In this document: positions 4,487 through 55,704 of the stretch, piece by piece
How positions within the stretch are numbered: the stretch's first letter is position 1
How the letters are laid out: the number at the start of each line of letters is the position of its first letter
Sequence record: PZ445498.1
Reading direction: 5' to 3' (one strand)
Source of the DNA: a phage
DNA: 64,000 nt
Made by a program: the position numbers and the translations under genes
The notes under the pieces: model-generated
What the model saw: only the letters and a program-made list of their open reading frames with translations
The model's database searches: none
What the model was told of the DNA's origin: nothing

Positions 4487-6820
4487 ATGAGCCATCGTAT
4501 AGAAAAAGTAATTAAACGTGACGGTACTGTTCAGGACTTTGCTCCTGAAAAACTCAATGATTGGGCTGCATGGGCATGTAAAGATACTGACGTAAGTTGG
4601 TCTGCCGTAGTTATGGCTGCCCTGAAAAATCTACCCAAAGGTGTTGTAGACTCCGATACACTCCAAGATGTGTTAATTAAAGCCGCTGAAGGTCTTATAA
4701 AAGACAATCCAGCATATGATACTGTAGCAAAGGAATTACGTCTTGCGCAGATGCGTAAACGCCTATATGATTCCTTCGAACCACCTTCTCTGCGTTTCTT
4801 CCACGATCATATGGTTCGTGTTGGCGCTTGGGAAGACATGAGTGCATGGATTAGCGATGATCAGTTTGATGCTCTGAATCAAGTTATTGATCATGATCGC
4901 GATCGTTTATTCACTAGTGGTGGACTGAAACAGTTCTTCGACAAGTATTCCCGTCGTAATATTGCAACTGGTGAAATTTATGAAACTCCGCAGTTTGCCT
5001 ACATGGGTATGGCAATGGCGATGTTATCTCAACCTAACTGGACAATTCTAGATGCAATCGACCTCTACAATGCAATGTCGCTCCACAAAATCAACGTTCC
5101 TACGCCGCCACTGGTTGGTCTGCGCTCTAGTGACCGTGGATTTGCTAGTTGCTGCCTCGTGGATTCCACTGACACGCTGGATTCAATCGACACAGCCGAG
5201 CACATCGTCTTCAAAATGGTCGCAGCCAGAGCGGGAATCGGGTATCATCTTGAAAGCCGATCAATTGCTGATCCGGTGCGAAATGGGGCATTCCCGCATT
5301 CCGGAAAACTGCCATATTATCGACACATTGACCGATCAGTAAAAGCTAACACTCAGCAAACCCGTGGCGGTTCTGCTACTGTGTCTTATCCATACTTCGA
5401 TCCTGAAATCATTCAGTTGATGCAGGTTAAGCAGCAACGTGCTACAGACGAGAATAAAATCGATAAGATGGATTACTCTCTGAGCTTTAACAACCTTCTA
5501 TTAAAACGTTACCTGAAAAACGAAGATATTACGCTAATGTCCTACTTCTACGCACCAGAAGTTCATGAAGCGTTTTATGGCGAAGATGAGGCTAAGTTTG
5601 AAGAAATCTACGTGGCAGCGGAGAAACGTGTGGCTTCTCTTACAAAGATCGACCACGAAGGAAAAACAATTCCAGCAGCTCCTAGAATCTCTGCAAAAGA
5701 AATCCTAGATACTTGGTTACGTATCCGTATGGAAACAGGGCGTATGTATGCTCATCACATTGGTGAATCTAACCGTCATGGTAACTTCCTTGACCCGATT
5801 CGTATGACCAACCTATGTGTTGAAATTACTCAGCCAACCAGGCCATTCCATCACATTACGGAGCTGTATAAGACCCAAGATCAGTTAGATGATATGCGTC
5901 CAGAAGATATTGGCGAAGTATCTCTGTGTAACTTAGGTGGAGTTGTACTAGGACGCATGGAATCTCTGGCTGAATGGGAAAAAACTTGCTACATTCTTCT
6001 GAAATTCGTTGATACCATCATTGAAATTCAGGACTATCCGTTCCCTACTATGGAATACACGGCTAAGAAGCGTCGTAACGTAGGTATTGGTCTGATGAAC
6101 GCAGCAGGTGCAATGGCAGCAGAAGGTCTGGCTTACGAAGGTGAAGAAGCCCGTAACTGGATTCACCGTGAAGCTGAGAAACTTTCTTACTTCCTGCATA
6201 AAGCCTCTGTACGTCTGGCTAAAGAACAAGGTGCATGTGACTGGTTTAATCGTACTAAACCATCCAAGGGGACTCTGGTAATCGACACGTATAAGAAAAC
6301 TGTTGATGAACTGGTAACTGTAGATCTAGAAATGGATTGGGAATCTCTGCGTGCAGATATTCTGAAATATGGTATGCGTAACTCTGTTCTGACTGCTCAG
6401 ATGCCCGGTGAAAGTTCCTCTGTACTGCTAGGTGTTACTAACTCTATCGAACCGCCTCGTAAGATTGTATCTATCAAGGGTAGTGCAGTGAATAAAGTAA
6501 TTGCAATTGCTCCAGGTGCAACTGATTGGGATACATTAATGAGTTATAAACTGGCTTATGATGTAGATCGTATCGAGTGGGTCAAATGGGTAGCAACCAT
6601 GCAGAAATTCTTCAGTCAGTCTATAAGTACGAATATGTACTATGACTACACCAAGTTTGAGAATGAAATTATTCCTGGCCCAGTAGTAGTTCGTGATTTC
6701 ATGACTGCTGTTAAGTACGGTTGGAAAACTTTCTACTATGCAAACTTTAACACCGAGAATGGTGGTGGTGCAGGGGAAGAAACTGCTGCTGGATGCGCAT
6801 CTGGTGGTTGTCAATTATAA
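4487..6820 (+). CDS. nrdA: ribonucleoside-diphosphate reductase large subunit (class Ia)
   Basis: ATP-cone start MSHRIEKVIKRDG, C-terminal Cys pair; start at the ATG after aaaggaaa RBS, downstream of promoter 4420-4448 (track start 4427 would lie inside the promoter). Confidence 0.9.
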   Translation: MSHRIEKVIKRDGTVQDFAPEKLNDWAAWACKDTDVSWSAVVMAALKNLPKGVVDSDTLQDVLIKAAEGLIKDNPAYDTVAKELRLAQMRKRLYDSFEPPSLRFFHDHMVRVGAWEDMSAWISDDQFDALNQVIDHDRDRLFTSGGLKQFFDKYSRRNIATGEIYETPQFAYMGMAMAMLSQPNWTILDAIDLYNAMSLHKINVPTPPLVGLRSSDRGFASCCLVDSTDTLDSIDTAEHIVFKMVAARAGIGYHLESRSIADPVRNGAFPHSGKLPYYRHIDRSVKANTQQTRGGSATVSYPYFDPEIIQLMQVKQQRATDENKIDKMDYSLSFNNLLLKRYLKNEDITLMSYFYAPEVHEAFYGEDEAKFEEIYVAAEKRVASLTKIDHEGKTIPAAPRISAKEILDTWLRIRMETGRMYAHHIGESNRHGNFLDPIRMTNLCVEITQPTRPFHHITELYKTQDQLDDMRPEDIGEVSLCNLGGVVLGRMESLAEWEKTCYILLKFVDTIIEIQDYPFPTMEYTAKKRRNVGIGLMNAAGAMAAEGLAYEGEEARNWIHREAEKLSYFLHKASVRLAKEQGACDWFNRTKPSKGTLVIDTYKKTVDELVTVDLEMDWESLRADILKYGMRNSVLTAQMPGESSSVLLGVTNSIEPPRKIVSIKGSAVNKVIAIAPGATDWDTLMSYKLAYDVDRIEWVKWVATMQKFFSQSISTNMYYDYTKFENEIIPGPVVVRDFMTAVKYGWKTFYYANFNTENGGGAGEETAAGCASGGCQL

Positions 6821-9117: not shown

Positions 9118-9968
9118 AGCAATATATTGAAACTGGAAAACGTATTCTTGAAGAGGGTGTATGGGTAACGAATCCTAGAACAGGGGTTCGTTGCCTAACC
9201 ATTATTGATGCAGACTTTACCTTTAACGTAGGAGCAGGAGAACTGCCGCTAGTAACTACTCGTAAAGCATTTGCTAAACAAGCAATAATGGAAATGATCG
9301 GATATCTCCGTGGGTACGACTCAGCAGCACAATTCCGCGCTATTGGTGTTAATACATGGAATGCTAATGCAAATGAAAATATTGCCTGGCTAGGTAATCC
9401 ATTCCGTAAAGGCGAGGATGATATGGGACGAGTTTATGGTGTTCAAGGACGTCATTGGACTAATTCTGATGGTATGGTATTTGATCAGTTAGCCAAAGTC
9501 TATCATAATTTGAAAAGAGGGATTGACGATCGTGGAGAAATTTTAACTTTTTGGAACCCTGGGGAATTTCGTAAAGGATGCCTACGTCCATGTATGCATA
9601 CCCATCAATTCTCTATTTTAGGTGATACACTATACCTAAACTCTTTCCAGAGGTCTAATGATTTCTTGCTGGGCCAAGTATTTAATATGGTGCAATGCTA
9701 TGCACTTCTAGCTATTATGGCACAGATTACAGGTCTTAAGCCAGGTATTGCTCGTCAAAAGATTATTAATCTTCATATCTATGAAGATCAGTATAATGTT
9801 CTGATGGAGCACAAGCAATTCGATCGTGAACCTTTTGCACCTCCTACTTTAGAAATCAATCCAAATATTAGAACTTTGGATGATGTATTAACGTGGGTAA
9901 GTAAGGATGATTTTACTGTTCGTGGCTATGAACACCATCCTGCTATTGCATATCCATTTACGGTGTAA
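9114..9968 (+). CDS. thyA: thymidylate synthase
   Basis: 284 aa; ...[42 protein letters not shown]... thymidylate synthase active-site region. Confidence 0.9.
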
Positions 9969-49548: not shown

Positions 49549-50430
49549 ATGTATAACTTTAAAGATAAACTAAGACAAAATGCTGGCAAAGGAAAAGCTA
49601 AGGAAACAAATAATATTCCTAATGCTAAAATATTACCTTTCCCTGAACTAACCCAAGAAGAAAAAGATAAACTAGCATTTATGTTCGATGCACTTCTAGG
49701 ACTGAATGGACGTTTATACTCTACGCTCTCGTTAAATGAGAAGCGTTTAGTAGAGTTCTTCGGAAAACGTTATCAAGTTACATCTAAGGGTAACGCTCTT
49801 AAAGAAGGAGAAAAACCTTACACAGTTATTAAGATTAGTGCATATGCACATCGTTTCTTAATTCGTGCGCTAGAGACAGAATACTTCACATTACCATCAT
49901 TTAGTGCATTCCACATCTTCGAAGATGAACGAATGAATATTGATGATTTATATGGAGATCGTTATCAATATTCAGGAAGTCCTTTCCATGATGCACTGAG
50001 AAGCTACCCAAATTGTTATCTTCCAATTAGAGCATCACAAGGCAAGGCAAGTGTCTTTGCAGTGTACTCAGGATCTAAAGCATCGGATCTAGAAACTTAT
50101 ATTTATAAAGAACGTAGATCTGCTATTCCAGAAGAAGCACGTTATGAAAATCCAATTCTACCAACTAAAGAAGTCAAGGAAACCAAAACTTCTACTACTC
50201 AAACAGAATCTCCTTATCTGAAGTTTGAGAAACAAGTTGGATGGGTTCTAGAAATGGGTATAGCTTCACCGCTTGCTGCAGCATTTATCAATAGGTATCT
50301 AGAAATTCCTGACGAGTTCCACACACGTTATAACACGAATATTCAGATCACAGATGAATTAATAGCTATTGCAAAAGATACACCTACTAACACTGAGGCG
50401 TATCAAAAAGCATACCAAGAGTTACTATAA
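49549..50430 (+). CDS. hypothetical protein
   Basis: 293 aa; last gene before the repeat region. Confidence 0.55.
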   Translation: MYNFKDKLRQNAGKGKAKETNNIPNAKILPFPELTQEEKDKLAFMFDALLGLNGRLYSTLSLNEKRLVEFFGKRYQVTSKGNALKEGEKPYTVIKISAYAHRFLIRALETEYFTLPSFSAFHIFEDERMNIDDLYGDRYQYSGSPFHDALRSYPNCYLPIRASQGKASVFAVYSGSKASDLETYIYKERRSAIPEEARYENPILPTKEVKETKTSTTQTESPYLKFEKQVGWVLEMGIASPLAAAFINRYLEIPDEFHTRYNTNIQITDELIAIAKDTPTNTEAYQKAYQELL

Positions 50431-50882
50431 GATCCTGCAAGTCTCGGTGCACAATACCTGTACCGAGACTCAAATACAAACTCTCGTTGACAGATAACTA
50501 AATGTATGTTATCATAACTCTATGAGTTAATAGAATTAACCATTTAGAGTTGCCACACAGAAGGTGTGGTGGTTCAGGAATCTTAAATTACTGACTTGTA
50601 GCGTAGGTTACGGAGCGACAGGACAAGTCAACAGGTAATTTAATAAAGATTACTAGAAACATCACGAGACCTTCTGGCGGGGGCAAAGCTCTATATGAGA
50701 ACCCTGGGGGATCTTATACTTATATAAAAACTGATACTGTTGAATAGATAAATTAACGTTCAAGATGATACACCGGTTGCCGCTCATCTGCTAGGATGGC
50801 ACAACACTTTCTAGTAGACTCCTAAGTTTCTAGGAAAACTCACGCATTCTAGGGCAGTTTCTCTCCAACGTTACATATCCTA

Positions 50883-50941
50883 GGGCGGTTTCCTATACAG
50901 GGCGGTTATAGGGAGGGCGGTTATAGGGAGGGCGGTTATTT
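50883..50941. repeat. short tandem repeat (gggcggttataggga units)
   Basis: Four gggcggtt cores within 60 bp. Confidence 0.8.
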
Positions 50942-50982
50942 CTAGAAGACATTTTTCCAAAACACATTTCTGGAAATTGCTA

Positions 50983-51582
50983 TCGGATTTGCACATTATG
51001 TTTCTAGAAATTTATGGTCGGATTTGCACATTGATAGGAGTCTCCAAAGTTTTTAGGAACACTGAAAATAGCAGCATTATTTCGGGCCGAAGGCCCATAT
51101 TTGCCTGAGTTTTTAGAGCCACAGGAATTTTCACTTGTCAAGCTGTTTTGCCCCCTTTTGCTAATAAAATTTCGTATAATCTCCCCGAATCTCACTTCTA
51201 GCCAAAACATCCCACATTATCCCCAAAAACGCAGCAAACCGGTGCTAAAGCACCATCACCGCTGCTCCTCCCGTAGTTCCTCCCAAAATCTCATCGGATT
51301 CGCACTTCTCCCCAAACCCACACAATCACACACCCTCCCATCAAAGTCACAAAAATCTTGTCGGATTTGCACATCTCAACACATGTCGGATTTGCACATA
51401 CTCTAGTAAATCCAGCTGGATTGCATTGCAGTTGCGGATTGCTGGAGTTTTTAGGAAAATTCATTGTCGGATTCGCACACTATAAAAATATTTCCCATCG
51501 GATTTGCACACTACCAAAAATTGTCGGATTCGCACATACACGCCCACACGTAACACCCGTGGAGCAATGTCGGATTTGCACA
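50983..51582. repeat. dispersed direct 13-mer TCGGATT(T/C)GCACA, 9 copies
   Basis: Copies at about 50983, 51018, 51294, 51361, 51386, 51467, 51498, 51524 and 51570, all on the plus strand; degenerate copies near 51413 and 51433. Confidence 0.8.
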
Positions 51583-51617
51583 AAAGCGCAGGGCAAAATG
51601 AAAATGCCCTGCCTGCC

Positions 51618-51775
51618 GAAATGCGAATGATAATGAGATTGATTCTCATTTGAAAAGTTGAATGCGAATGATAATGATTCGCGTTTAGAAAGTGGAATGA
51701 GAATGGTTATCATTTACAGAATTGAATGCGAATGAGTTGCATAATGATAATGATTCGCATTTAGAAAGGGAAGTG
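51618..51775. repeat. AT-rich repeats and palindromes built on AATGCGAATGATAATGA
   Basis: Three direct copies of gaatgcgaatga plus inverted partners (aatgcgaat ... attcgcatt). Confidence 0.75.
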
Positions 51776-51794
51776 AGAAACACTGCTATTTAAG

Positions 51795-51803
51795 TTATCC
51801 ACA
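51795..51803. promoter_or_regulatory. DnaA-box consensus TTATCCACA
   Basis: Exact 9-mer match. Confidence 0.45.
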
Positions 51804-51884
51804 GGTTTATTAACAGCACGATTTGACTTGACAAAATCCTAGCGATTTTGAGGCGTTATCAACAGACTTATTAACAGGTTATTC

Positions 51885-51904
51885 TACTGTATAAATATAC
51901 AGTA
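51885..51904. promoter_or_regulatory. LexA (SOS) box-like palindrome TACTGTATAAATATACAGTA
   Basis: Fits TACTG-N10-CAGTA exactly. Confidence 0.5.
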
Positions 51905-52274
51905 TATTCCAGCAGGAGAATAATCTAATATAGCCTTTAAACGCTCTGTAACGCAGTCTAACGCGTTTATTTTTGGAGGAGGTATTTTAATAAGGGGAAG
52001 TTTGAGGAAGACCAGAAAAAGCGGGGCCGGTAGTTGCGCCCCGTTATTATTAGCGGTAGATGTATTGTTGCCAGTAGCGGCGGATATTGTCGCCACCGTC
52101 GGGATCATTAGCAGACCTAATATTACCTATAAAAATATATAGTTTCATAACGCCATCGCTCCTAGAATGAGAATGATTATTATTAACATTGTGAAGCCAT
52201 TACCAAATCGTAAACGCTGGGAATGTTTCCCAGCGGTATTATTAGATTTATGGCTTTGTGTTTTTCGCCACCAG

Positions 52275-52623
52275 CTATTCATAAGCTGATTTCCGAAACG
52301 TTGTTTCAATACTATCCGCAGTGGATTGAATATACGCGCCTTTCATAATCAGGCGCTCTGTACACACTTTGCGGAAAATGTCAATAAATTCATTTTCATT
52401 TTCCGCTATTAACGCTTCCCCCATAACCTGAACGTCACAAGACCCAAAAGTTAAAAATTGAAACGCTAGTTCACGGGCGACAACGGCAGAAATTTTATAA
52501 TGTGCTTTGCCCTCATAGATATTAACCACGCCTTTATAAACTGGTGAAAGCTGATTTAAATAGTTTGCTAATAATGCCGGACGGCAATTAGTTACAAATC
52601 GGTTGCCCTCGTAAATTACCATT
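52275..52623 (-). CDS. hypothetical pre-early protein
   Basis: Start reassigned to the internal ATG (MVIYEGN) coupled to the upstream stop (TAAAATG). Confidence 0.45.
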
Positions 52624-52836
52624 TTATAACACTCCCCGAAACGCAGCGTAAAAGGTGGCAAAGTGTTTAACCGTTTCGGATACCAAATTGCCGCGCTTGT
52701 CAAATTTCTTTTCTGTAACACGAAAGGCGTTTTTATTGCGTGGTACATATTCAATTTTACAGTCTAGACGCTCGAACGTGTTAACATCCACCAGCTTAAA
52801 ACCTTTGGAACGGGCAAGGGAAACATTCTTTAACAT
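52624..52836 (-). CDS. hypothetical pre-early protein
   Basis: 70 aa, aaagggga RBS. Confidence 0.45.
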   Translation of the reverse strand: MLKNVSLARSKGFKLVDVNTFERLDCKIEYVPRNKNAFRVTEKKFDKRGNLVSETVKHFATFYAAFRGVL

Positions 52837-52838
52837 TT

Positions 52839-52988
52839 TTATTCCCCTTTACCAGTCATACAGCCTAACAAGTAAGAAAAACCCGCGATACCTGCTCCAA
52901 TAATAACCACGTGAACGCCGAAAGCTATTGCAAACAGTGATAAAATAGCGCCCAAGATACCTGCTAGAACTGATCGAAAAATAACCAT
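52839..52988 (-). CDS. small hydrophobic peptide (49 aa, below the ORF-track cutoff)
   Basis: aggag RBS; MVIFRSVLAGILGAILSLFAIAFGVHVVIIGAGIAGFSYLLGCMTGKGE. Confidence 0.35.
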   Translation of the reverse strand: MVIFRSVLAGILGAILSLFAIAFGVHVVIIGAGIAGFSYLLGCMTGKGE

Positions 52989-53036
52989 TTTATTAGCTCC
53001 TAGAAATTAGGGGCGAAAGTAACGCCCCGTTATTAA

Positions 53037-53264
53037 TTACATTAAAACAATTTTTGCCGCTTGCTTTTTGGTGCAGTGGTTAGCTTTCAATTCATCCAGC
53101 AAAAATCCGGCTGTTTGCTGATCAATCTTGTCATTGTCGTAAAGCCCCTGAATGGTAACATAAGTTTTACCAATCCCAAATTCAGAAACCATAACGCTGA
53201 CAATAGCGGGAACGGATACCCATTCCATACCGTTAAAAATTGCAGAAGATGATGAATATACCAT
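53037..53264 (-). CDS. hypothetical pre-early protein
   Basis: 75-aa ORF downstream of the 333-aa gene on the same strand. Confidence 0.4.
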   Translation of the reverse strand: MVYSSSSAIFNGMEWVSVPAIVSVMVSEFGIGKTYVTIQGLYDNDKIDQQTAGFLLDELKANHCTKKQAAKIVLM

Positions 53265-53384
53265 TTTAACGCCTCCTAGAAATCAGGGAAAAATTTTCAA
53301 TCCACCGTTTCGGTGTAAAGGCATTATAACAAAAAAGGCCGCCATAATAGGCGACCTTTACAAAACTTTACATTAGACTAATTA

Positions 53385-54386
53385 TTATTCGCTTTCAGCG
53401 TTTTGGGTAAAGGTGGAAATGTCAATACCTTTTACCATTTCGTCGATCATTTCAGCGATGTTAAAAGATTGTACCATTTCTAGCATTGCCGCTTCCATTG
53501 CCGCGCCTGCTACCGCTTTTGCTTTCGCGTTATTCGGGGCGTACTGGTCAACTGCTACACTCAGCAGGTTAGCAATAACTACCCGACCGATAGGCGTATC
53601 AATATAACCCTTGATAATAAACGGCGCTTTTTTCGCCGCTACTTTTGTGATTTGAGTCAGTGCAATTTTACCTGCTTCCAGTTTAGCAGCGTTTACAACG
53701 GCGGATTTATTAGCGGCAACGATAGAAGATACTTTAGACATAATATTTCCTTTATTTTCAGTAGTTTGCGCATTTGCGCTTGAAGTTTGAGATTGTACAG
53801 CCTGTTTTGTTACAATGTCAAGCGGTAAAAGTGTAAATCCAGCATTTGCAACGTTTGATTCATTCCCATACTCTAAATAATCGTTAGGAATCAACATGTT
53901 ACCGCTAGCGCGTTCAAAACACAATACGCCAGTTGTTTCGATTGCGTCACTATCCGCACCTTTATAACTGGATGATAATTCACGCCAGATACTATTTAAT
54001 AACGATCCGACACTATCCAGCCGGATATTATTTACTTTTGTTGCTGTTACCTGCTCCTTTTCTTGCACGTTATATAATCGCGCAATGTAACCACTATGAG
54101 ACTCATTATAGCCAACAATGATAAAATCAATATCAGTTCCACGACTATTACGGAAAATATGATAATCACGGTTGAAAATTACTAGCGCCCTTGTCTGGTC
54201 TAGTAATAGCGTGAAATCATCGACTGAATAATGAGTATCATTATTATCTAAAATATCCTCGTGAATCTTTTCGATAATAGTAGCCGTATGTTGTAGGCTT
54301 GCCGCGCTACTACCATCTAGCAGGTTGCGCAAACTACCTTTTAAAATAGTGGCGTTTGCTGGTACTGCAATTCTTACAGTAGACAT
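53385..54386 (-). CDS. hypothetical pre-early protein (333 aa), function unknown
   Basis: Largest leftward ORF of the higher-GC block; no motif I recognise. Confidence 0.6.
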   Translation of the reverse strand: MSTVRIAVPANATILKGSLRNLLDGSSAASLQHTATIIEKIHEDILDNNDTHYSVDDFTLLLDQTRALVIFNRDYHIFRNSRGTDIDFIIVGYNESHSGYIARLYNVQEKEQVTATKVNNIRLDSVGSLLNSIWRELSSSYKGADSDAIETTGVLCFERASGNMLIPNDYLEYGNESNVANAGFTLLPLDIVTKQAVQSQTSSANAQTTENKGNIMSKVSSIVAANKSAVVNAAKLEAGKIALTQITKVAAKKAPFIIKGYIDTPIGRVVIANLLSVAVDQYAPNNAKAKAVAGAAMEAAMLEMVQSFNIAEMIDEMVKGIDISTFTQNAESE

Positions 54387-54644
54387 TTCTTTACCTCCCT
54401 CGTTAATCGGTGAGTGAATGATATAGATATTTGTTCATTAGGGGCAAGAAAAAAGAAAAGGTTTTTTATTCCTTGCCTACTGCCTGTTTTTATGATATCC
54501 GCGCGTTTTCTATTTCTAGCACTCTGTAAGTGTACACAAGGCTTTATTATAATAAGGGCAGCAGTGAGAAAACGCCGTGTAGCGCGTTCTAGGCCGCTTA
54601 AATTTGATTGCGGTTGTTACTGCTACCATTCTACCCTGTATATT

Positions 54645-54664
54645 TATACAGTAGGATAACCTGT
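54645..54664. promoter_or_regulatory. LexA box-like palindrome CTGT-N8-ACAG
   Basis: cctgtatatttatacagtag in the divergent intergenic region. Confidence 0.45.
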
Positions 54665-54673
54665 ATATAAGTC

Positions 54674-54682
54674 TGTGGATAA
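54674..54682. promoter_or_regulatory. DnaA box (TGTGGATAA, reverse complement of TTATCCACA)
   Basis: Exact 9-mer; 8/9 matches also at 54723-54731 and 55008-55016. Confidence 0.45.
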
Positions 54683-55494
54683 GTCGCCAAAACGTCGCCT
54701 ATTGCGTCAAGTTATTTTGTGCTGTGGATAGCTTTGTGCATAACCTAAATGATAGTGGTTCTCACTTAGCCCGATAGTTTCTCATAGTTATTATTTCTCA
54801 TTAATTTATGTGTATATTATATATTATGAAATAGTTAGTTGGCTAATAGATTTTTAGAGTATTAATAGTCTGCTAACTGTTTCGGCTGTTACAATCCACC
54901 AGCGTGATTATCATCCTAGCGATTATTAGTCTGCTAATGCTCTGATGCACGTCCAGACTTATTTGTCAATGAAAAATAACAGCAGAAAATACTTTTTTGA
55001 AAAATCAAGTGGATAACTCATTAAATTTCATTTTTGCTTTTTGTATAAGTTATTAACAGGGTCTAAAACGCTCTGTAACGCATTCTAAGCGCCTCAAAGG
55101 AAAAGATAGGCAATCATAAGGGGTACACCGAGAAAACCTCACCACGAGGATTTTAGATTTTGTCAAGTACCCTAGAGCAGATATAAATGAAAAAATTACT
55201 TGCTAAAATGGTTGTTTTGGTGTTATTCGCGCGCCCGTTTCATTAAATTTAATGCGCCGCTGGACGTTTGCGAGTAGTGGTTTTCTTTACGTTTCTTTAC
55301 AAAAATACGCTTGCGCCCTTCTCGGTATTCTCCTATTATTTATCACGTAGGGCGGCAATGACGAACTACACGGCGGGGATAACAGCGATTGACAGTCTGT
55401 TTGACCTTTCAAAACCCTGCCATGCTCTTTAAAAATTAGGGAACATCTTAAAGCCTATCGGCGGTAAACTTAGATATTATAAGGAATCGACGAT

Positions 55495-55704
55495 ATGAAA
55501 CAAACGCTTTTGATCACTGGCAAGCCTATCAAGTCGCTTGATAGCAGAACAAAAAATTTGTTGACAGTAGCGCAACGATCTGTAAAATACAGATTCAAGC
55601 AATACAAGAAAGGCAAGCAACAAGGGCTGGAAATGGTGTGGCGTAATATAATGATTGATTTATATAACTCCCATCAAATCGAAAAAAGTTTAAAAAACGA
55701 TTGA
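55495..55704 (+). CDS. hypothetical pre-early protein
   Basis: 69 aa, basic. Confidence 0.45.
   Translation: MKQTLLITGKPIKSLDSRTKNLLTVAQRSVKYRFKQYKKGKQQGLEMVWRNIMIDLYNSHQIEKSLKND

What the first reader, a model, noticed from the sequence alone, without database searches (positions are those of the whole stretch)
51795..55016. Host regulator sites (consensus LexA boxes and DnaA boxes) in the pre-early block
TACTGTATAAATATACAGTA (51885-51904) is a perfect TACTG-N10-CAGTA SOS box and CTGTATATTTATACAG (54646-54661) is a second CTGT-N8-ACAG palindrome. Exact DnaA boxes occur at 51795-51803 (TTATCCACA) and 54674-54682 (TGTGGATAA), with 8/9 matches at 54723 and 55008. Both LexA boxes sit beside a TTATTAACAG motif at the edges of the divergent leftward/rightward gene block. 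This suggests the first DNA to enter the cell either is regulated by, or titrates, LexA and DnaA.
Basis: seen in the sequence. Interest (0 to 1): 0.6.

Follow-up and report, generated by a model that had tools for sequence, protein, structure and literature searches.

The report
Conserved LexA/DnaA sites in T5-like phage
Two near-perfect binding sites for the host SOS repressor LexA, each next to DnaA boxes, sit at the inner ends of a known inverted repeat in the first DNA that this T5-like phage injects; the DnaA boxes were already described, but the LexA sites seem not to have been, and they are kept across the whole phage family.

Summary
The window is a T5-like phage (Epseptimavirus), reversed relative to T5 convention. 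The sites are real. One LexA 20-mer lies at 51885-51904. The second core lies at 54636-54651, not 54646-54661. They score 25.8 and 22.6 bits on a LexA matrix, above almost all E. coli operators; the next best hit in 64 kb scores 12.5.

The boxes are the inner ends of a 134-nt inverted repeat (51771-51904 / 54634-54767). This is T5's IRD'spacerIRC' / IRCspacerIRD, which flanks the accessory pre-early cassette. Its eight paired DnaA boxes are already published (Heusterspreute 1987; Davison 2020). I found no paper that mentions LexA there.

The DnaA-pair, 8-bp gap, LexA-box layout is conserved in T5 and in Klebsiella, Pantoea, Proteus, Aeromonas and Vibrio phages, where A1 is only 32-42% identical. 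The composite pattern is essentially confined to T5-like contigs: 37 IMG/VR stretches against 4, a chance-level count, in 596 Gb of bacterial genomes.

No conserved promoter overlaps the box. The characterised gene-011 promoter lies about 190 bp away, and two sites cannot plausibly titrate LexA. The best reading is a host-protein (LexA plus DnaA) boundary complex next to the injection-stop region, but the mechanism is unproven.

The parts
51771..51904 (+). Arm A of the 134-nt inverted repeat, homologous to T5 IRD'spacerIRC'. It is the copy next to the injection-stop region.
   Evidence: the repeat finder I1. 99 of 134 positions match the reverse complement of arm B. It aligns with T5 9300-9500.
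51885..51904 (.). LexA box A, TACTGTATAAATATACAGTA. It has 1 mismatch to the 20-mer consensus.
   Evidence: (25.8 bits). Conserved in all 10 A1-anchored phages examined.
51795..51815 (+). Outer DnaA-box pair of arm A: TTATCCACA (consensus), a 3-bp gap, then TTATTAACA (variant).
   Evidence: This is the pairing described by Davison.
51856..51876 (+). Inner DnaA-type pair of arm A: TTATCAACA, GAC, TTATTAACA. It ends 8 bp before the LexA 20-mer.
   Evidence: The same 3-bp and 8-bp spacing is seen in PG07, AhSzw-1 and Stubb.
51916..51924 (-). Degenerate reverse-oriented DnaA-like element, GAGAATAAT. It aligns with TGTGGATAA or TGTGGGTAA in other lineages.
   Evidence: (L024, L043, L021).
51939..51997 (.). 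Conserved blocks between LexA box A and the operon terminator: a 3x CTGTAACGC-like repeat (51939-51968) and GGAGGAGGTATTTTAATAAGGGG (51975-51997).
   Evidence: Sequence is conserved across genera, but no consensus RNA structure was found.
52021..52043 (-). Hairpin of the terminator that ends the leftward pre-early operon.
   Evidence: A comparable A-run plus hairpin sits at about the same distance in 10 or more phages. T5 annotates a terminator at 9275-9296.
54634..54767 (-). Arm B of the inverted repeat, homologous to T5 IRCspacerIRD, in the divergent untranslated region.
54634..54653 (.). LexA box B, CCCTGTATATTTATACAGTA (core 54636-54651).
   Evidence: (22.55 bits).
54662..54682 (-). Inner DnaA-type pair of arm B: TTATCCACA (54674-54682) and TTATATACA (54662-54670).
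54723..54743 (-). Outer DnaA-type pair of arm B: TTATGCACA (54735-54743) and CTATCCACA (54723-54731).
54418..54447 (-). Promoter of the leftward operon, TTGCCC-18-TATCAT. It is homologous to the characterised T5 gene-011 promoter and is not overlapped by the LexA box.
52050..54386 (-). Accessory pre-early gene cassette bracketed by the two arms. It holds homologues of T5.011-.017, including DUF7566 and the Ung-dependent nickase.

Best explanation
Each site is a composite docking module for host DNA-binding proteins. A near-consensus LexA operator sits 8 bp from a tandem pair of DnaA boxes, which themselves lie 3 bp apart. This forms the inner end of the T5-family IRD/IRC inverted repeats.

Inferred steps, none shown here:
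- When the first-step-transfer DNA enters, pre-existing LexA dimers and DnaA occupy both modules within seconds.
- They form stable nucleoprotein boundaries on either side of the variable accessory pre-early cassette.
- The universally conserved copy (arm A) lies between the operon terminator and the injection-stop repeats, about 0.2-0.8 kb inside the terminal-repeat boundary. There it acts as a protein roadblock or architectural element of the injection-stop region. It is not a classical SOS on/off switch of a promoter.

What is shown: sequence identity to the two host consensus motifs, deep conservation with fixed geometry, specificity to T5-like genomes, and the absence of an overlapping conserved promoter.

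Confidence by step: that LexA binds, about 0.8. The boundary or injection-stop architectural role, about 0.35-0.4.
For: 1. Strength of the LexA match. The sites score 25.8 and 22.55 bits, against 11.9-23.8 for 26 E. coli operators and 12.5 for the next best window hit. The 20-mer consensus gives 2 hits against 0.00 expected.

2. Homology to a known element. The boxes are the inner termini of the 134-nt inverted repeat. This repeat is homologous to T5 IRD'spacerIRC' / IRCspacerIRD.

3. Depth of conservation. High-scoring boxes with adjacent DnaA boxes occur in T5, atrejo, EPS7, Roth37, AAS21, Stubb, AhSzw-1, PG07 and Gary. In the most distant of these, A1 is only 32-42% identical. The spacing is the same throughout: DnaA, 3 bp, DnaA, 8 bp, LexA.

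4. Unbiased comparison. blastn of 5.3 kb of the window against Stubb, PG07 and Gary returns this module as the best-conserved DNA.

5. Symmetric recognition. The asymmetric centre flips between AAA and TTT from phage to phage and from arm to arm. This fits a symmetric dimer and argues against a directional -10 element.

6. Specificity. The composite pattern gives 37 stretches in IMG/VR, nearly all on 108-128-kb contigs. It gives only 4 hits, a chance-level count, in 596 Gb of bacterial genomes.

7. Some lineages place DnaA boxes on both sides of the LexA box.

8. Arm A is universal. Vibrio phages keep only a degenerate arm B, and Davison's Type 4 phages lack IRC/IRD altogether. Arm A always follows the operon terminator by about 105-125 nt. 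It lies 211-790 bp inside the terminal-repeat end.

9. No pre-early protein shows a LexA-like domain. The A2 model resembles GcrA/Myb-type helix-turn-helix domains, not a LexA winged helix.
Against: - No binding or functional data exist for LexA on T5 DNA.
- The LexA matrix was built from operators recalled from memory.
- A cytoplasmic protein that binds DNA already inside the cell has no obvious way to halt DNA still being ejected. Any role in the injection stop itself is therefore physically unclear.
- A T5 deletion from hegG to gene 017 must remove arm B, yet the phage is viable with small plaques. The exact deletion end-points were not available to me.
- T5-like phages are not known to depend on recA, lexA or dnaA hosts (own knowledge).
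- The mirror orientation of the arms does not match a single direction of transcription to be blocked. RNA polymerase would meet the LexA side first at arm A and the DnaA side first at arm B.
Confidence: 0.4

Rival explanations
1. SOS or cell-cycle sensor. The LexA box is the operator of a weak promoter embedded in the module, and DnaA modulates it. There are two candidates. One uses -35 TCAACA/TCCACA inside the DnaA box and -10 TATTCT/TATCCT just 5' of the box. The other faces outward, with -10 TATACT/AATACT overlapping the box. A short or antisense transcript, or extra operon expression, would then respond to host DNA damage and DnaA status.
For: - A tool hit reads TATACA-17-AATAAT at 51896-51924.
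- Candidate hexamers recur next to the box.
- T5 arm B has a perfect TATAAT 19 bp after TATACA.
- E. coli control regions that combine LexA and DnaA sites exist, for example uvrB (own knowledge).
Against: - The median best promoter score at any fixed position is 5.2 bits or less, out of about 17, over 40 modules on both strands.
- The '-10' hexamer downstream of the box aligns with a reverse DnaA box in other lineages.
- No conserved RNA structure was found and no Rfam family matched.
- The AAA/TTT flips argue against a directional element.
- The known gene-011 promoter lies about 190 bp away.
Confidence: 0.2
2. The real ligand is a phage protein, for example A2, which is essential for second-step transfer, or a virion protein. 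Alternatively it is another host protein. The resemblance to LexA and DnaA sites would then be incidental or mimicry. The recurring TTATNNACAG units and the CAG-containing half-sites could be one iteron family.
For: - TTATNNACAG recurs 5 times on the + strand and twice as its reverse complement, and half of the 'DnaA' boxes break the consensus at position 6.
- A2 is a DNA-binding protein required for second-step transfer, and its model contains helix-turn-helix-like domains.
Against: - Two adjacent elements each match a different host consensus at 19-20 of 20 and 9 of 9 positions. Distant phages carry perfect TTATCCACA pairs.
- The variants seen in the box (CTGG, CTGTAC, AAACAG) are ones tolerated in real operators (own knowledge).
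- No LexA-like domain was found in any pre-early protein.
Confidence: 0.12
3. A DNA-level role with no host-regulator logic. The inverted repeats would be recombination or module-exchange boundaries of the variable cassette, or part of terminal-repeat processing and packaging near the right genome end.
For: - The arms bracket a cassette of highly variable content and length. Davison gives 1851-4258 bp, and the loci examined here also differ.
- Arm A lies close to the terminal-repeat boundary.
Against: - Homology-driven exchange does not explain why exact protein-consensus cores are kept while the surrounding non-coding DNA diverges beyond alignment.
- The composite geometry is fixed to the base pair across genera.
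Confidence: 0.1
4. Titration. The incoming DNA soaks up LexA and DnaA to derepress SOS genes or disturb host replication.
For: The operators are as strong as, or stronger than, chromosomal ones.
Against: - There are only two LexA operators and about eight DnaA-type boxes per injected first-step DNA. This is against roughly 10^3 molecules of each protein per cell (own knowledge).
- Host DNA is degraded within minutes by A1, so derepressing host genes would serve little purpose.
Confidence: 0.03

Closest known systems
T5 first-step-transfer inverted repeats IRD'spacerIRC' / IRCspacerIRD, with eight paired DnaA boxes (Heusterspreute et al. 1987; Wang et al. 2005; Davison 2015; Davison, bioRxiv 10.1101/866236)
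   Same: This is the homologous element. It has the same ~131-134-nt arms flanking the T5.011-.017 block, the same four DnaA/DnaA* pairs with 3-bp gaps, and the same neighbourhood, including nine DRD repeats and the iss region.
   Different: The published descriptions I could read do not identify the terminal palindrome of IRD/IRD' as a LexA operator. 'LexA' and 'SOS' occur 0 times in Davison 2020. No linking paper turned up in four full-text searches. The older subscription papers could not be checked.
Gammaproteobacterial SOS boxes (LexA operators of recA, sulA, umuDC and colicin genes)
   Same: The sequence is TACTG-(AT)-rich-CAGTA, a 16-mer palindrome with an A/T centre. Scores are at or above those of real operators.
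   Different: The site is not placed over a recognisable promoter. It sits in a strictly virulent phage, duplicated in inverted orientation, and is fused to DnaA boxes.
Direct use of host LexA by mobile elements (CTXphi PrstA, Bacillus phage GIL01 with gp7, coliphage 186 tum, colicin plasmids). Own knowledge.
   Same: A host LexA operator is carried on phage or plasmid DNA.
   Different: Those operators control lysogeny, induction or toxin promoters of temperate or plasmid elements. Here no lysogeny exists and no promoter is evident.
DnaA-box clusters that act without initiating replication (datA, DARS, DnaA roadblocks or terminators) and the uvrB control region, which has both LexA and DnaA sites. 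Own knowledge.
   Same: They are clustered, phased DnaA boxes. In uvrB, LexA and DnaA sites sit together in one control region.
   Different: There is no evidence here of DnaA-ATP/ADP recycling, of an unwinding element, or of a promoter. T5 origins map elsewhere.

Membership tests
T5-family IRD/IRC inverted repeats of the first-step-transfer DNA | A pair of ~131-nt inverted repeats flanking the T5.011-.017 gene block inside the terminal repeat. | tested here: met
   Arms at 51771-51904 and 54634-54767 share 99 of 134 positions. Gene order matches T5, EPS7 and atrejo.
T5-family IRD/IRC inverted repeats of the first-step-transfer DNA | Four pairs of DnaA/DnaA* boxes, with the two boxes of each pair 3 bp apart. 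| tested here: met
   Pairs at 51795/51807, 51856/51868, 54662/54674 and 54723/54735. This is as Davison describes.
T5-family IRD/IRC inverted repeats of the first-step-transfer DNA | Sequence homology to the T5 arms and adjacency to the DRD repeat array of the iss region. | tested here: met
   Side-by-side sequence comparison with T5 9300-9500 and 6000-6230. Nine TCGGATTYGCAC repeats lie at 50983-51581.
LexA operator (SOS box), Gammaproteobacteria type | A CTGT-N8-ACAG palindrome with an A/T-rich centre, scoring within the range of validated operators. | tested here: met
   Scores of 25.8 and 22.55 bits against 11.9-23.8 for 26 operators. One and three mismatches to the 20-mer consensus.
LexA operator (SOS box), Gammaproteobacteria type | LexA binds the site in vitro or in vivo. 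| not testable with these tools
   This needs EMSA, footprinting or ChIP.
LexA operator (SOS box), Gammaproteobacteria type | The operator overlaps or closely follows a promoter, so that expression depends on SOS. | tested here: not met
   No positionally conserved promoter was found. The known gene-011 promoter homologue lies about 190 bp away. Box A lies beyond the operon terminator. Weak candidates cannot be excluded.
Functional DnaA-box cluster | Boxes match TT(A/T)TNCACA. | tested here: inconclusive
   Three of the eight arm boxes fit the consensus (51795, 54674, 54735). The others carry 1-2 mismatches, often at position 6. Distant phages carry perfect pairs at the same place.
Functional DnaA-box cluster | DnaA binds, or the cluster has replication-origin or DnaA-titration activity. 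| not testable with these tools
   No assay is available here. Davison argues against an origin role.

The most novel reading that the evidence does not exclude
Host LexA, together with DnaA, is the long-sought host component of the T5 injection-stop and restart switch. On this reading, the super-consensus operator at the end of the first-step DNA is clamped by LexA on entry. Second-step transfer is licensed when the clamp is removed. Removal would come either from A1/A2 acting on the complex or from RecA-stimulated LexA self-cleavage triggered by A1-driven host DNA breakdown. The evidence does not exclude this, but it sits awkwardly with several points. A2-amber phage degrades host DNA yet does not complete transfer. 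Phages of this family are not known to need recA (own knowledge). A cytoplasmic clamp is also hard to reconcile with stopping ejection.
Probability: 0.07. Interest if true: 0.9.

Novelty: new variant of a known kind. Interest (0 to 1): 0.6.

Why it matters
The two-step DNA injection of T5 has lacked a molecular mechanism for more than 50 years. Recent papers still describe the stop signal only as repeats, palindromes and DnaA boxes. Recognising a family-wide, near-perfect LexA operator fused at fixed spacing to the DnaA boxes adds a second, easily manipulated host protein to the candidate list. That makes the question directly testable with lexA(Def), lexA(Ind-), recA and dnaA hosts, with operator point mutants, and with ChIP during the first-step pause. 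It would also be a rare case of a strictly virulent phage family conserving a host SOS operator in non-coding DNA.

Tried and rejected
1. A '-10 hexamer' 13-14 nt after the box (AATAAT, GATTAT, CAATAT). It looked conserved, but it aligns with a reverse DnaA box (TGTGGATAA or TGTGGGTAA) in other lineages. Systematic two-hexamer scoring found no conserved promoter.

2. A conserved small RNA downstream of the box. RNAalifold on 16 diverse phages gave no structure on either strand, and Rfam gave nothing.

4. Switching of the LexA motif with host, tested through A1-like genes in non-gammaproteobacterial phages. The Caulobacter hit is a phiCbK-type replication-module gene with no first-step-transfer context, so the test was dropped.

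5. A bacterial origin of the composite module. There are only 4 chance-level hits in GTDB genomes.

6. The Davison 2015 review could not be retrieved by DOI or by my guessed PMC id.
Full report
**Identity of the window.** The 3.9 kb around the finding matches more than 500 T5-like phage records. Identity is 92-95% to Salmonella and Escherichia Epseptimavirus phages such as falkor, Ace, EPS7 and atrejo. Annotated relatives show that the window runs opposite to the T5 convention:
- about 50.9-51.8 kb is the injection-stop (iss) repeat region;
- 52.05-54.39 kb holds the leftward accessory pre-early genes, homologues of T5.011-.017;
- 54.4-55.5 kb is the divergent untranslated region;
- A2, A1 and dmp follow, reading rightward.

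In the same-genus phage chee158, the annotated inner boundary of the left terminal repeat maps to about window position 51325.

**Observation check.** The first LexA box is exactly as stated (51885-51904). The DnaA boxes at 51795, 54674, 54723 and 55008 are as stated. Only box A lies next to TTATTAACAG; box B lies next to TTATATACAG.

**Statistics.**
- The minimal CTGT-N8-ACAG motif occurs twice against 0.76 expected, which is not significant alone.
- The full 20-mer consensus with up to 3 mismatches occurs twice against 0.00 in 100 shuffles.
- I built a LexA matrix from 26 E. coli operators recalled from memory. On it the sites score 25.8 and 22.55 bits. The operators themselves score 11.9-23.8, and the next best window hit scores 12.5. 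Shuffle maxima averaged 13.2 +/- 2.1.

**What the sites are.** The two boxes are reverse complements of each other. They form the inner ends of a 134-nt inverted repeat, 51771-51904 and 54634-54767, with 99 of 134 positions identical. This is the element called IRD'spacerIRC' and IRCspacerIRD in T5. Its eight DnaA/DnaA* boxes, arranged in four pairs 3 bp apart, were noted in 1987. Davison analysed them across 25 phages and proposed that membrane-bound DnaA causes the injection stop. The window shows the same four pairs and nine DRD repeats.

The DnaA half of the finding is therefore already known. LexA and SOS are not mentioned in Davison's preprint. Two 2026 papers that still describe the stop signal as unresolved do not mention them in that context either. 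Four full-text searches found no paper linking LexA or SOS boxes to T5-like first-step DNA. The older subscription papers could not be read.

**Conservation.**
- T5 itself carries TACTGTATAAATATACAGTA at 9409 and CACTGTATAAATATACAGGG at 6211.
- I fetched A1-anchored loci from Klebsiella (Roth37), Pantoea (AAS21), Proteus (Stubb), Aeromonas (AhSzw-1) and Vibrio (PG07, Gary) phages. A1 identity falls to 32-42% in the last four.
- Every locus has a top LexA-matrix hit of 18.7-27.3 bits. The hit lies next to DnaA boxes at the equivalent position.
- The geometry is the same to the base pair: DnaA, 3 bp, DnaA, 8 bp, LexA 20-mer.
- An unbiased blastn of window 50400-55700 against Stubb, PG07 and Gary returns this module as the best-conserved DNA.
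- The asymmetric centre flips between AAA and TTT among phages and arms. This is expected for a symmetric dimer site and not for a directional promoter element.
- The composite pattern TTATCNACA-N21/22-CTGTAT-N4-ATACAG gives 37 stretches in IMG/VR, nearly all on 108-128-kb contigs. It gives only 4 hits, about the chance expectation, in 596 Gb of bacterial genomes.
- Some lineages place DnaA boxes on both sides of the LexA box.

**Is it a regulated promoter?** The geometry argues against the simple reading.
- Box B lies about 190 bp upstream of the homologue of the experimentally characterised T5 gene-011 promoter.
- Box A lies about 115 bp beyond the terminator of the same operon. That arrangement recurs in all phages examined.
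- A conserved '-10-like' hexamer after the box turned out to align with a reverse DnaA box in other lineages.
- Systematic two-hexamer scoring over 40 modules found no positionally conserved promoter on either strand. The median best score was 5.2 bits or less out of about 17.
- No conserved RNA structure and no Rfam family was found downstream.

Weak promoters overlapping the box cannot be excluded.

**Is a phage protein the real ligand?** Pfam finds only DUFs among the pre-early proteins. A profile built from A2 homologues hits no solved structure. The AlphaFold model of A2 (pLDDT 83.7) resembles the GcrA DNA-binding domain and Myb or homeodomain folds. It does not resemble the LexA winged helix. 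Two neighbouring elements each match a different host consensus almost perfectly, so the host proteins are the most economical ligands.

**Mechanism.** I commit, at about 0.4, to a host-protein boundary complex. LexA and DnaA bind both modules on entry. The universal copy (arm A) sits between the operon terminator and the iss repeats, 211-790 bp inside the terminal-repeat end. There it acts as a roadblock or architectural part of the stop region.

Constraints on this reading:
- The published T5 deletion from hegG to gene 017, which must remove arm B, is viable with small plaques.
- Vibrio phages and Davison's Type 4 phages keep only arm A. Co-operation between the two arms is therefore not essential.
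- Titration is implausible on stoichiometry.
- A role as the stop itself is physically unclear for cytoplasmic proteins, and no data show binding.

**Novelty and score.** The DnaA boxes and the repeat are already known. The LexA operator, its fixed fusion to the DnaA pair and its family-wide conservation appear to be undescribed. I rate this a new variant of a known kind, with interest about 0.6. It gives a concrete, cheap experimental handle on a long-standing open problem, but no mechanism is shown.

Noticed in passing
window 51620-51765; also 52163-52193 and 54227-54245: Tandem repeats such as GAATGCGAATGATAATGATTCGCATTT match the E. coli Fur-box consensus GATAATGATAATCATTATC at 13-15 of 19 positions. 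Eight overlapping hits cluster at 51629-51746. The whole window has 51 hits against 27.8 +/- 5.3 in shuffles. Similar boxes lie near arm A in T5, AAS21, Stubb and PG07, where AATGATAATCATTCTCATT is near-perfect. Some other hits fall inside the dmp coding sequence and are probably incidental. Davison 2020 does not mention Fur. The T5 receptor FhuA is Fur-regulated (own knowledge).
   Followed up: partly
window 50983-51581: Nine TCGGATTYGCAC repeats, equivalent to the T5 DRD repeats, straddle the inferred terminal-repeat boundary at about 51325. Six contain ATTTGCACA, an 8/9 match to the relaxed DnaA consensus, and all are on the + strand.
   Followed up: partly
window 55050-55090: A third, partial copy of the module: TTATTAACAGG joined directly to the CTGTAACGC-type repeat block (AAACGCTCTGTAACGCATTCTAAGCGCC). 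It looks like arm A with the LexA box and about 60 bp deleted.
   Followed up: no
window 51905-52020: About 110 nt between LexA box A and the operon terminator carries three sequence blocks conserved from E. coli to Vibrio phages: GTGAATAAT-TCTRRTAT, a 3x CTGTAAsGC repeat, and GGxGGTAyTwwA...GGGG. No consensus RNA structure was found and the function is unknown.
   Followed up: partly
[not shown]
   Followed up: partly
L011 624, L018 568, L038 13631 (IMG/VR contigs of 6.8-16 kb): A different context carries a perfect LexA box (TACTGTATACATATACAGTA) 20 bp after TTATCAACA. The contigs are not T5-sized and the flanks are unrelated. This is probably an ordinary SOS-regulated gene of another element.
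   Followed up: no
L043, L015, L039 and L024, L021 (IMG/VR, T5-sized contigs): Variant module architectures have convergent DnaA boxes upstream of the LexA box (TTATCCACA-N6-TGTGGATAA) and another reverse DnaA box 9 bp downstream.
   Followed up: no
window 54816-54845 (- strand): A promoter-like site, TAGCCA-18-TATAAT, lies outside arm B and points through it towards the leftward operon. It is conserved in T5 at about 6060-6090. If active, arm B would lie in a transcribed leader.
   Followed up: no
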